Below are positions 8,948 to 9,377 of a stretch of DNA of 33,990 nt, piece by piece. Under the pieces are notes generated by a model. It made no database searches, had not been told where the DNA came from, and saw only the letters and a program-made list of their open reading frames with translations. Numbering within the stretch: the first letter of the stretch is position 1; the number at the start of each line of letters is the position of its first letter. Made by a program: the position numbers and the translations under genes. This stretch comes from a virus: the UHGV virus genome UHGV-0171993; one strand, written 5' to 3'.

Positions 8948-9179
8948 ACGGCAGCAGAATGGTGCATTGCTGGTGGAGATTTTGTATTTCCTGGCAGGGT
9001 CGGTGATGTATCATTCTGGTGTTGTAAATAACACCATCGGGGCGCTCCTCAGGGCGAGGGTGGTTAAAAGAGTCGGTTTAGCGGGAAACCACAGTATTCA
9101 TACAGGACGGAATACTTCGGGAGGCACCCGACGCCTCGATTTTATTACAATTAAAAAATTCATTCCTTGCATTGACCAA

Positions 9180-9204
9180 CCGCCGTATCCGGCGGTTTTT
9201 TTTA
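9180..9204 (+). terminator. Rho-independent terminator
   Basis: ccgccg-tatc-cggcgg hairpin followed by 8 T. Confidence 0.55.
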
Positions 9205-9336
9205 TTCAGAATTTCGTTTCTTTATGGTTCGCTGCGGCGGGCCTTTTTCATATCTGCGCTTTACTCAACGTGTATTGAATCTGAATACATCACATAAAAG
9301 ACATCGGCGGGTGCCTTTGACGGGGTGTTTTATTAC

Positions 9337-9358
9337 GGGCCGCTGGTGGCCCTTTTTT
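9337..9358 (+). terminator. Rho-independent terminator just upstream of the lysis genes (tR'-like position)
   Basis: gggcc-gctggt-ggccc hairpin followed by TTTTTT, about 20 nt before the holin start. Confidence 0.5.
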
Positions 9359-9377
9359 ATTTACAGGAGAAAAAAGT

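What the first reader, a model, noticed from the sequence alone, without database searches (positions are those of the whole stretch)
9170..9377. Two tandem intrinsic terminators immediately upstream of the holin; late promoter/qut not adjacent to Q
In lambda, the late promoter, the Q-utilisation site and the tR' terminator lie directly downstream of Q. Here Q is followed within 21 bp by convergent cargo, and the only strong + strand terminators before the lysis genes are at 9180-9204 and 9337-9358, the latter about 20 nt before the holin RBS. This suggests that the late promoter and Q-utilisation site lie in the 8.9-9.35 kb region, or upstream of the tRNAs as in Stx phages, so the cargo sits between Q and its site of action.
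Basis: inference. Interest (0 to 1): 0.5.

Follow-up and report, generated by a model that had tools for sequence, protein, structure and literature searches.

The report
Late promoter displaced from Q by cargo
The terminators in front of this prophage's lysis genes are real, but they are ordinary insulators; the switch that the Q protein acts on lies 2.4 kb further upstream, separated from the Q gene by an inserted anti-phage defence system.

Summary
Canonical, conserved intrinsic terminators lie at 9178-9205 and 9337-9358, with a third at 9226-9248.

The late promoter and Q-utilisation site are not in 8.9-9.35 kb. That spacer has no promoter-like site and is shared by prophages with three unrelated Q families.

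The Q-cognate cassette is at 6890-6975, between the convergent Kiwa defence genes and a 65-aa ORF. It follows this Q in 76 of 80 related loci, at gaps of 15 bp to 3 kb, and is replaced when the Q family changes. It is homologous to the experimentally mapped PR' of Stx phage Sp5/933W, which predicts a start at A6926. So cargo does sit between Q and its site of action, as in phiP27 and K-12 DLP12.

The first terminator most likely ends a conserved, structured RNA of about 260 nt (8945-9207) resembling STnc100/PasD. The last terminator travels with the holin module. Together they stop Q-independent transcripts, such as those from the conserved tRNA promoter at 8574-8601, from reaching the holin. 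Q-modified polymerase from PR' should read through all of them.

This is known lambdoid logic in a new arrangement. The by-product of interest is a defence-system hotspot between Q and PR'.

The parts
5009..5359 (+). Q antiterminator gene, Q21/Q933W family
   Evidence: Pfam PF06530, E = 2.9e-45. Distant match to the Q21 structures 6P18/6JNX, E = 0.0019. 46% identical to the Q of 933W/VT2-Sakai and 48% to K-12 QuuD.
5381..6792 (-). Kiwa defence system (kwaB 5381-6265, kwaA 6271-6792), convergent with Q; the cargo that separates Q from its promoter
   Evidence: PADLOC KwaB E = 1.4e-149 and KwaA E = 1.9e-83. The same slot holds at least 15 other cargo types in related loci.
6890..6975 (+). Late promoter / Q-utilisation cassette. 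-35 TTAACG at 6890-6895; QBE candidate TAACGCGTACGCAAAAA at 6891-6907, containing the palindrome GCGTACGC at 6896-6903; -10 TATCGT at 6914-6919; predicted start at A6926; conserved initial transcribed region with a 5' hairpin (6927-6942); first hairpin and T-run at 6954-6975
   Evidence: Homology between loci with different cargo resumes exactly here, and the block is replaced in loci with other Q families. It is linked to Q in 76 of 80 loci. The alignment of 42 unique cassettes has a sharp upstream border and an invariant TAnnnT. It is homologous to the Sakai Sp5 PR' region, whose start and 3' end were mapped by dRNA-seq and Term-seq (PMC7547250).
7100..7297 (+). 65-aa ORF with a weak TrmB-like HTH match; first gene downstream of PR'
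   Evidence: Annotated as WP_000917767 in relatives. Weak PF01978 match. Present in phiP27 as L23.
7284..7307 (+). Second terminator downstream of PR', overlapping the end of the 65-aa ORF
   Evidence: 6-bp stem plus T6, -8.9 kcal/mol. It occupies a position equivalent to the mapped tR' of Sp5, which is the second hairpin after PR'.
7448..8494 (+). N6/N4 DNA methyltransferase gene
   Evidence: PF01555, E = 1.8e-44. Conserved in relatives and phiP27.
8574..8601 (+). Conserved sigma70-like promoter for the tRNA genes (TTGAAA-16-TAATAT); a source of Q-independent transcription
   Evidence: Promoter scan. Conserved in six of the seven relatives aligned; the phiP27 stretch did not align here. A promoter driving the tRNAs downstream of tR' was mapped in the Stx2a phage (PMC7547250).
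8663..8816 (+). tRNA-Thr(UGU) at 8663-8736 and tRNA-Gly(UCC) at 8742-8816
   Evidence: ARAGORN; Rfam tRNA at 67.6 and 65.6 bits.
8945..9207 (+). Conserved non-coding structured RNA: long G.U-rich hairpin (8945-9028), branched STnc100/PasD-like domain (9036-9140), A/U-rich linker, then terminator T1
   Evidence: No conserved ORF. MFE -92.4 kcal/mol, z = -4.1. Consensus fold of 78 pairs, 6 with compensatory changes. Full-length sub-threshold STnc100 matches in three homologs at 21.7-24.4 bits against a gathering score of 47. Same layout and synteny as PasD1/PasD2.
9178..9205 (+). Terminator T1 (first terminator of the finding); 3' end of the structured RNA and the border of a second cargo slot
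   Evidence: Cargo (TerB, DUF3927) is inserted right after it in relatives.
9226..9248 (+).
   Evidence: 7-bp stem plus T5, -12 kcal/mol, z = -2.96. Shared with the second copy in SerU-LTIIb and replaced by about 190 bp in other relatives.
9337..9358 (+). Terminator T3 (second terminator of the finding); its T-run ends 6 nt before the holin ribosome-binding site; part of the holin module
   Evidence: Invariant or nearly so in 7 relatives. Homology with phiP27, Stx2k and Actinobacillus phage pPE4 starts at about 9279-9284 and runs into the holin gene.
9378..10415 (+). Lysis cassette: holin (PF16931) 9378-9770; second holin (PF05449), ORF 9706-10035; M15 endolysin 10032-10415
   Evidence: Pfam.

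Best explanation
The window carries a Q933W/Q21-type late-gene switch whose two halves have been separated by cargo. Q (5009-5359) is made from the early operon and acts in trans on the late promoter cassette at 6890-6975, which lies 1.53 kb downstream of the Q stop, just past the convergent Kiwa genes. RNA polymerase starting at about A6926 would, without Q, stop at the hairpin/T-run at 6954-6975 (weak in this phage) or at 7284-7307. With Q loaded at the promoter, it becomes termination-resistant and transcribes about 2.45 kb to the holin: the 65-aa ORF, the methylase, two tRNAs, a structured RNA, and the terminators at 9178, 9226 and 9337.

The terminators in the finding are not part of the Q-loading site. 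T1 ends a conserved RNA gene resembling STnc100/PasD. It also marks the border of a second cargo slot, which holds TerB/DUF3927 in relatives and corresponds to the tRNA-to-holin slot that holds stx2e in phiP27. T3 belongs to the holin module. Together they keep Q-independent transcripts, notably those from the conserved tRNA promoter at 8574-8601, out of the lysis genes in the lysogen.

Shown here: the sequence features, their conservation, the linkage of the cassette to Q, and its homology to a mapped PR'. Inferred: the exact start site, the QBE assignment, Q-dependent read-through, and expression of the RNA.
For: (1) Four loci with the same Q but four different reverse-strand cargos regain homology at window ~6885. 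Loci with DUF1133-type or lambda-type Q have different sequence over those ~75 bp and share everything from the T-run onward.
(2) In 80 IMG/VR loci encoding this Q, the cassette lies downstream in 76. The other 4 contigs end less than 1.55 kb after Q. The gap between the Q stop and the cassette ranges from 15 bp (3 loci, the lambda-like arrangement) to 2968 bp. The genes downstream of the cassette also vary, so it is tied to Q and not to the lysis genes.
(3) The alignment of 42 unique cassettes has a sharp upstream border, an invariant TAnnnT -10 and an invariant initial transcribed region.
(4) The DNA after Q in VT2-Sakai is homologous: TTTACG-16-TATCAT-gataagAGTGGTTAC...hairpin-T7. The published PR' start and tR' 3' end are 257 nt apart (PMC7547250), which fits A746 and the last T of the second terminator in L092.
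(5) The block between -35 and -10 carries a palindrome specific to each Q clade, while the rest of the cassette is shared. That is the position of the QBE in lambda and phage 21 (PMC6606751).
(6) Only one cassette copy is in the window, and none is in loci with other Q families.
(7) The 8817-9377 spacer has no promoter-like site and is shared across Q families.
(8) A conserved tRNA promoter lies downstream of PR'.
(9) T1 closes a structured, non-coding, conserved RNA.
(10) The same architecture occurs in phiP27 and K-12 DLP12.
Against: There are no transcript data for this phage, so the start site is inferred by homology and -10 spacing only. I could not confirm the coordinate offset between the Sakai genome version used in the paper and NC_002695.2; only the 257-nt spacing is matched. 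No clear -10-like pause element could be assigned in the initial transcribed region. The QBE candidate is a palindrome, whereas the QBE of Q21 is a direct repeat. The first hairpin after PR' is degenerate in this window, and in Sp5 the mapped tR' is the second terminator, so the role of the first hairpin is unclear. Covariation in the short PR' RNA helices is uninformative. The STnc100 match is well below Rfam's gathering score.
Confidence: 0.85

Rival explanations
1. The late promoter and Q-utilisation site lie inside the tRNA-to-holin spacer (8.9-9.35 kb), and the two terminators are the tR' equivalents that Q overcomes.
For: The terminators are strong and sit directly upstream of the holin. 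In lambda, tR' is the first thing Q-modified polymerase reads through.
Against: There is no sigma70-like site in 8817-9377. The spacer is shared by prophages with three unrelated Q families, so it cannot hold a Q-specific site. The Q-linked cassette profile finds nothing there. In relatives, whole genes are inserted after T1, and in phiP27 stx2e sits in the tRNA-to-holin slot, without changing Q. The segment ending at T1 is accounted for as a structured RNA gene.
Confidence: 0.04
2. The conserved 6890-6975 block is a recombination or insertion boundary (for example an attachment-like site for cargo cassettes), or the promoter of the 65-aa ORF and methylase only, and not the Q-utilisation site. 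Q would then act elsewhere or be non-functional.
For: The block is exactly where homology between different cargos resumes, as expected for a recombination junction. The 65-aa ORF follows 125 bp after it.
Against: The block is homologous to the region where the Stx-phage PR' start has been mapped experimentally. It stays with Q when the downstream genes change, and it lies 15 bp after Q where there is no cargo. In DLP12 it sits 120 bp upstream of the holin essD, with no 65-aa ORF or methylase. The clade-specific sub-block varies with Q divergence. A junction role and a promoter role are not exclusive.
Confidence: 0.07
3. The lysis genes are expressed independently of Q, from the tRNA promoter or another constitutive promoter, and the terminators act as leaky attenuators that set a low basal level.
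For: A conserved promoter lies at 8574-8601, on the same strand 0.8 kb upstream of the holin. Intrinsic terminators are rarely 100% efficient.
Against: Three to four consecutive terminators, including a strong one (T1, -13.4 kcal/mol, U8), lie between that promoter and the holin. An intact Q and its cognate cassette are retained and tightly linked across many loci, which argues that Q control is under selection. Constitutive holin expression would be lethal, on established lambdoid biology.
Confidence: 0.04

Closest known systems
PR'-qut-tR' late regulatory cassette of Stx phages 933W / Sp5 (VT2-Sakai), which yields the StxS RNA
   Same: Same Q family (PF06530; 46% identity). Homologous promoter DNA: -10 TATCNT, start at the A of AAGAGTGG, the same initial transcribed sequence GTGGTTAC..GCCAC, then a CCCGC..GCGGG hairpin with a T-run. 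A Q-independent tRNA promoter and tRNA genes lie downstream, and cargo sits between the tRNAs and the lysis genes.
   Different: In Sp5 the promoter abuts Q, with the start about 22 nt after the Q stop. Here it is 1.53 kb away, behind Kiwa. The block between -35 and -10 differs (GCGTACGC here, TTTACGATCGTAAA there). Sp5 has the 258-nt StxS region and only a 3' remnant of the methylase, whereas this phage has the 65-aa ORF and an intact methylase. The first hairpin is weaker here.
Stx2e phage phiP27 (NC_003356)
   Same: Same backbone order: Q, cargo, cassette, 65-aa ORF (L23), methylase (L24), tRNAs, cargo slot, then T3 with the PF16931 holin, a second holin and the endolysin. Cargo lies between Q and the cassette.
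   Different: Its cargo after Q is a + strand PD-Lambda-1-like gene (L22), not Kiwa. The tRNA-to-holin slot holds stx2e instead of the structured RNA. Its Q is 44% identical and has a different palindrome (GGAATTCC).
E. coli K-12 cryptic prophage DLP12 (quuD - nmpC - essD)
   Same: A PF06530-type Q (QuuD, 48% identical) is followed by a convergent cargo gene (the porin nmpC), then the homologous cassette, then the lysis genes.
   Different: The cargo is a porin interrupted by IS5, not a defence system. The cassette lies only 120 bp upstream of the holin essD, with no methylase, tRNAs or structured RNA between them. The holin belongs to a different family.
STnc100 (Rfam RF02076) and PasD1/PasD2 prophage sRNAs
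   Same: Located in the late-operon leader of lambdoid prophages, on the same strand as the holin and upstream of it. Shared outer helix, CUCC..GAGG hairpin and CGGGAGGC(A/G)CC hairpin, then a U-rich linker and an intrinsic terminator.
   Different: The match scores 22.5 bits against a gathering score of 47, and blastn finds no similarity to PasD. The RNA here carries an extra 84-nt long hairpin at its 5' side and follows tRNA genes rather than a DUF3927 gene. Its expression and any Hfq binding are unknown.
Lambda PR'-qut-tR' (6S RNA) and phage 21 PR'
   Same: The same logic: a constitutive late promoter, a Q-binding element between -35 and -10, early termination without Q, and processive antitermination with Q (PMC6606751; bioRxiv 10.1101/651190).
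   Different: Lambda Q belongs to an unrelated protein family. The QBE of Q21 is a direct repeat of TGAGCA, whereas the candidate here is a palindrome. In lambda and in the standard Q-cassette model (bioRxiv 10.1101/651190) the promoter directly follows Q.

Membership tests
Q21/Q933W-type Q-dependent late regulatory cassette | Q protein of Pfam family PF06530 | tested here: met
   E = 2.9e-45, 153 bits against a cut-off of 26. Weak match to Q21 in the PDB.
Q21/Q933W-type Q-dependent late regulatory cassette | A sigma70 late promoter (PR') cognate to that Q | tested here: met
   Shown by conservation and by homology to the mapped Sp5 PR': TTAACG-18-TATCGT, with TAnnnT invariant in 42 unique cassettes. 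Promoter activity itself was not tested.
Q21/Q933W-type Q-dependent late regulatory cassette | Q-binding element between the -35 and -10 elements | tested here: inconclusive
   A 17-bp block, invariant within the Q clade and containing a palindrome, lies at -35 to -19 and differs between Q clades. Binding was not tested, and the architecture differs from the direct repeats of Q21.
Q21/Q933W-type Q-dependent late regulatory cassette | A -10-like sigma-dependent pause element in the initial transcribed region | tested here: inconclusive
   Sakai has TACATT at +7 to +12, but the window has TACTTC, and the A at position 2 is not conserved across cassettes. No confident assignment is possible.
Q21/Q933W-type Q-dependent late regulatory cassette | Intrinsic terminator(s) shortly downstream of the promoter | tested here: met
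   Hairpin and T-run at 6954-6975, weak here but GC-rich in relatives, and a second at 7284-7307.
Q21/Q933W-type Q-dependent late regulatory cassette | Promoter immediately adjacent to the Q gene | tested here: not met
   A 1530-bp gap is filled by Kiwa in the window. The promoter is adjacent (15-bp gap) in L064, L066 and L067, and it abuts Q in Sakai. This is a matter of arrangement and is not required for the mechanism.
Q21/Q933W-type Q-dependent late regulatory cassette | Q-dependent read-through of downstream terminators | not testable with these tools
   Needs reporter or transcript assays.
Intrinsic (Rho-independent) terminator | G+C-rich stem-loop immediately followed by a U-run on the transcribed strand | tested here: met
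   9178-9205 (8 bp, U8, -13.4 kcal/mol); 9226-9248 (7 bp, U5, -12); 9337-9358 (5-6 bp, U6, -10.8).
Intrinsic (Rho-independent) terminator | Actual 3'-end formation | not testable with these tools
   Needs Term-seq or Northern blots.
STnc100 (RF02076) / PasD sRNA family | Score at or above the Rfam gathering threshold | tested here: not met
   22.5 bits in the window, 24.4 and 21.7 in homologs, against 47.
STnc100 (RF02076) / PasD sRNA family | Shared secondary-structure layout and core motif | tested here: inconclusive
   Full-length model alignment with an identical CGGGAGGCACCCG hairpin. MAFFT alignment with PasD shows the same order of elements. The consensus fold has 6 compensatory pairs among 9 sequences.
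STnc100 (RF02076) / PasD sRNA family | Location in a lambdoid prophage late leader upstream of the holin | tested here: met
   compared with the window map.
Kiwa defence system | Adjacent kwaA and kwaB genes | tested here: met
   PADLOC KwaB E = 1.4e-149 and KwaA E = 1.9e-83, both matched over the full profile length.

The most novel reading that the evidence does not exclude
The short interval between the Q stop codon and the -35 element of PR' in Q933W-type lambdoid prophages is a dedicated cargo slot, strongly biased towards the strand opposite Q, that behaves as a defence-island hotspot. At least eight of the cargo cassettes found there have no match in PADLOC and could be uncharacterised anti-phage systems. 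Separately, the palindromic, Q-clade-specific block in the promoter would mean that this branch of the Q21/Q933W family reads its site differently from Q21.
Probability: 0.4. Interest if true: 0.55.

Novelty: new member of a known kind. Interest (0 to 1): 0.35.

Why it matters
For annotation, the late promoter of this large group of E. coli prophages should be sought by its conserved cassette, which matches in 3,369 of 5,426 complete E. coli genomes (1,048 of them over at least 80% of its length), and not by proximity to Q. Everything between that cassette and the lysis genes belongs to the Q-controlled late transcript. In relatives that includes toxin genes such as stx2e.

For phage-defence work, the gap between Q and PR' is a compact, easily recognised slot. 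It already holds Kiwa, PD-Lambda-1, PD-Lambda-5 and candidate systems (PDC-S42, PDC-M53), which makes it a cheap place to look for new systems.

For RNA biology, the first terminator marks a conserved structured RNA of about 260 nt next to phage tRNA genes that may extend the STnc100/PasD group.

The mechanism itself (Q acting in trans, terminators insulating the lysis genes) is textbook.

Tried and rejected
- **Rfam search of 5300-10100**: only tRNAs pass threshold. The weak mir-983, STnc240, suhB and isrK matches were dismissed as terminator or hairpin look-alikes.
- **The 114-aa ORF at 8934-9278**: rejected as a gene, because frame and length are not conserved in homologs.
- **PasA, PasD1 and PasD2 compared with the window by blastn** (PasC was not fetched): no significant hit. 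PasA is in any case transcribed antisense to the holin, so T3 is not a PasA-type terminator.
- **Transferring QBE and SDPE coordinates from the Q21 structure papers**: the sequences are only in figures. The text gives TGAGCA direct repeats at about -21 and -13, and nothing comparable exists here.
- **A -10-like pause element in the initial transcribed region**: candidates (TAAGAG at -4 to +2, TACTTC at +7 to +12) are either mispositioned or not conserved, so it is left unassigned.
- **Covariation tests on the 5' hairpin and first terminator of the PR' RNA**: the helices are conserved in sequence and the test is uninformative.
- **An alternative -10 (TATTAT, 6909-6914)**: rejected because it is not conserved in diverged cassettes, whereas TAnnnT at 6914-6919 is.
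- **Literature searches for a described Q-to-PR' defence hotspot**: nothing found in the held library. Papers outside the library were not searched.

Full report
**Gene map.** The window is the early-to-late junction of a lambdoid prophage.
- DUF968 (3586-4635), RusA (4645-5019) and Q (5009-5359, PF06530) are on the + strand.
- A convergent two-gene Kiwa defence system follows: kwaB at 5381-6265 and kwaA at 6271-6792, both on the - strand.
- After a 307-bp non-coding stretch come a 65-aa ORF (7100-7297), an N6/N4 methyltransferase (7448-8494), tRNA-Thr and tRNA-Gly (8663-8816), and a 561-bp non-coding spacer (8817-9377).
- The lysis cassette follows: two holins and an M15 endolysin (9378-10415).

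**The observation.** Both terminators named in the finding are present and canonical.
- T1 has an 8-bp stem at 9178-9197 followed by eight T. It folds at -13.4 kcal/mol, and no shuffle out of 200 folds as well.
- T3 has its stem at 9337-9352 followed by six T, at -10.8 kcal/mol.
- A third terminator, T2 at 9226-9248 (-12 kcal/mol), lies between them and was missed.
- Terminator-like sites are about four times more frequent in 8400-9450 than in shuffled sequence.
- T1 and T3 are conserved in E. coli relatives. T1's innermost pair changes from G-C to A-T in several relatives.
- The spacer occurs in about 560 of 5,426 complete E. coli genomes.

**Where Q acts.** E. coli relatives share the backbone of 65-aa ORF, methylase, tRNAs, spacer and holin, but carry three unrelated Q families: the short PF06530 Q seen here, a DUF1133 protein, and a lambda-type Q. 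Q proteins are specific for their own sites, so the site must lie in DNA that changes with the Q family.

Aligning the DNA upstream of the 65-aa ORF shows exactly this pattern. Four loci with the short Q, each with a different reverse-strand cargo after Q, regain homology at window ~6885 and share about 75 bp ending in a hairpin and T-run. The two loci with other Q families have unrelated sequence over those 75 bp and join the alignment only from the T-run onward. The tRNA-to-holin spacer, by contrast, is shared by all three Q families, so it cannot contain the Q-specific site.

**Linkage test.**
- I collected 80 viral contigs encoding this Q. blastn and a profile HMM find the cassette downstream of Q in 76 of them. 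The other four contigs end less than 1.55 kb after Q.
- The gap between the Q stop and the cassette is 15 bp in three loci, which is the lambda-like arrangement. Elsewhere it takes many values up to 2968 bp.
- The genes downstream of the cassette also differ among loci. The cassette is therefore tied to Q and not to the lysis genes.
- The window has one copy (6891-6973) and none in 8.9-9.35 kb.

**Anatomy of the cassette.**
- The alignment of 42 non-redundant cassettes has a sharp upstream border at (C/T)TAACGCGTACGCAAAAA. It also shows an invariant TAnnnT (TATCGT, 6914-6919), an invariant TGTTAAGAGTGGT, a small hairpin GUGGU..GCCAC, and a CCCGC..GCGGG hairpin with a T-run.
- This Q is 46% identical to the Q of 933W and VT2-Sakai. 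The DNA just after Q in Sakai is homologous to the cassette: TTTACG-16-TATCAT-gataagAGTGGTTACATTGCCACGCAG, then a hairpin and seven T.
- Sy et al. mapped the PR' start by dRNA-seq and the tR' 3' end by Term-seq at coordinates 257 nt apart (1,266,203 and 1,266,460; PMC7547250). On the Sakai chromosome that spacing joins the A that lies 7 nt after TATCAT to the last T of the second terminator's T-run.
- By homology the window's late start is A6926, give or take one base.
- I could not verify the coordinate offset between genome versions. This rests on spacing and promoter geometry.

**QBE candidate.**
- In lambda and phage 21 the Q-binding element lies between the -35 and -10 elements. For Q21 it is a direct repeat of TGAGCA (PMC6606751).
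- Here the block between -35 and -10 is invariant within this Q clade (Q at least 84% identical).
- It differs in clades whose Q is only 44-48% identical. The rest of the cassette stays the same.
- Each clade has its own short palindrome followed by an A-tract: GCGTACGC in the window, TACGTACGTA in DLP12, TTTACGATCGTAAA in Sakai and GGAATTCC in phiP27.
- This is the behaviour expected of a QBE, but it is an inference.
- I could not assign a -10-like pause element. Covariation in the short RNA helices is uninformative.
- The first hairpin after the start is degenerate in this window. The mapped tR' in Sp5 is the second terminator. The equivalent here is probably 7284-7307.

**What the terminators in the finding are.**
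- T1 closes a conserved block at 8945-9207. The block has no conserved reading frame and folds far better than shuffles (-92.4 kcal/mol, z = -4.1). Its consensus fold has 78 pairs, six of them with compensatory changes.
- The layout is a long G.U-rich hairpin, a branched domain, an A/U-rich linker and then the terminator.
- Rfam gives full-length but sub-threshold matches to STnc100 in the window and two homologs (21.7-24.4 bits against a gathering score of 47). They share the CGGGAGGCACCCG hairpin.
- A 2026 preprint reports that STnc100 and the EPEC sRNAs PasD1/PasD2 share ancestry and lie next to holin operons in lambdoid prophages.
- PasD1 and PasD2 do sit in the late leader, on the holin strand, and end in a terminator. 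They show the same order of elements as this RNA, without blastn-level similarity.
- T1 is therefore most likely the 3' end of an sRNA-like gene, possibly a distant relative of STnc100/PasD. Membership is not established.
- In relatives, extra genes (TerB, DUF3927) are inserted right after T1. In phiP27 the tRNA-to-holin slot holds stx2e.
- T3 moves with the holin module. Homology with phiP27, an Stx2k phage and an Actinobacillus phage begins at about 9280 and runs into the holin.

**Why terminators are needed there.** A sigma70-like promoter (TTGAAA-16-TAATAT, 8574-8601) precedes the tRNAs and is conserved in six of the seven relatives aligned; the phiP27 stretch did not align there. A promoter driving the phage tRNAs downstream of tR' was mapped in the Stx2a phage. 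Transcripts from it are not Q-modified and must be stopped before the holin. T1, T2 and T3, and perhaps the weak hairpin at 8914-8934, do that. Q-modified polymerase from PR' should ignore them, on established Q biology.

**How unusual is the split between Q and PR'?**
- It is not unique. phiP27 has a + strand PD-Lambda-1-like gene between Q and the cassette.
- K-12 DLP12 has the convergent porin gene nmpC between quuD and the cassette, which lies 120 bp upstream of essD.
- The cassette matches in 3,369 of 5,426 complete E. coli genomes, 1,048 of them over at least 80% of its length.
- Across the loci the slot holds at least 15 cargo types, nearly all on the strand opposite Q.
- Identified cargos are Kiwa, a TIR plus caspase-like pair, PDC-S42, PDC-M53, PD-Lambda-5 and an NsnA-like gene with a methylase. 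Eight cassettes have no PADLOC match.
- I found no description of this slot as a defence hotspot in the papers I could search. That is not proof that none exists.

**Verdict.** The system is a new arrangement of a well-known kind. Interest is modest. The defence hotspot and the structured RNA are the parts worth following up.

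Noticed in passing
window 5381-6792 (-); loci L002-L004, L033, L041, L051, L057, L069, L072, L073, L077, L078, L083, L085, L086, L091: The interval between the Q stop codon and the PR' -35 element is a cargo hotspot with at least 15 different cassettes, almost all on the strand opposite Q. Identified: Kiwa, a TIR plus caspase-like pair, PDC-S42, PDC-M53, PD-Lambda-5, an NsnA-like gene with a methylase, and PD-Lambda-1. Eight cassettes have no PADLOC match and are candidate new defence systems.
   Followed up: partly
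window 8945-9207 (+): A conserved non-coding structured RNA of about 260 nt (z = -4.1) with an 84-nt G.U-rich hairpin, a branched STnc100/PasD-like domain, an A/U-rich linker and terminator T1. It may be transcribed from the tRNA promoter as a 3' trailer of the tRNA operon; no promoter of its own was found.
   Followed up: partly
window 6896-6903; L093 ~4700-4720; L092 713-726; L091 ~3010-3025: Each Q clade of the 933W type has its own short palindrome followed by an A-tract between the -35 and -10 elements of PR' (GCGTACGC, TACGTACGTA, TTTACGATCGTAAA, GGAATTCC). Q21, by contrast, uses direct repeats. This hints at a different DNA-reading mode.
   Followed up: partly
window 9206-9336; L003 6340-7985; L002 5893-6190: A second variable slot lies between T1 and the holin module. 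It is minimal here and in the second SerU-LTIIb copy. Many E. coli relatives have an extra ~190 bp of non-coding DNA there, and others have TerB, DUF3927 and two hypothetical genes. In phiP27 the wider tRNA-to-holin slot holds stx2e.
   Followed up: partly
L088 950-1070 (VT2-Sakai) compared with window 8380-8494: Just downstream of the mapped tR' of the Stx2a phage Sp5 lies a 3' remnant of the methyltransferase gene that is intact in this window. The Sp5 arrangement therefore looks like a deletion derivative of the backbone seen here.
   Followed up: no
window 5330-5359 and homologs (alignment A2): The last ~8 residues of Q differ between loci that carry different cargo, while the rest of the protein is about 90% identical. 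The upstream recombination junction of the cargo slot therefore seems to lie inside the 3' end of Q.
   Followed up: no
cassette alignments (for example L059, L009, L021 against L004, L002): Two downstream module types follow the first hairpin: one with an unbroken T-run (TTTTTTTGT..) and one with an interrupted run (TTTTGTCGTTTCTGG..). The efficiency of the first terminator probably differs between phages, and the window's own hairpin is degenerate.
   Followed up: no
window 8663-8816: The phage tRNAs are tRNA-Thr(UGU) and tRNA-Gly(UCC), not the Ile/Arg set of Stx phages. SerU-LTIIb carries a duplicated tRNA, spacer and holin block (L001 1122-2424 and 3028-4127).
   Followed up: no
window 9378-10415: The lysis cassette has two different holin-family genes (PF16931 and PF05449) followed by an M15 peptidase endolysin. 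Close E. coli relatives with the same holins carry a GH108 endolysin instead, so the endolysin has been exchanged.
   Followed up: no
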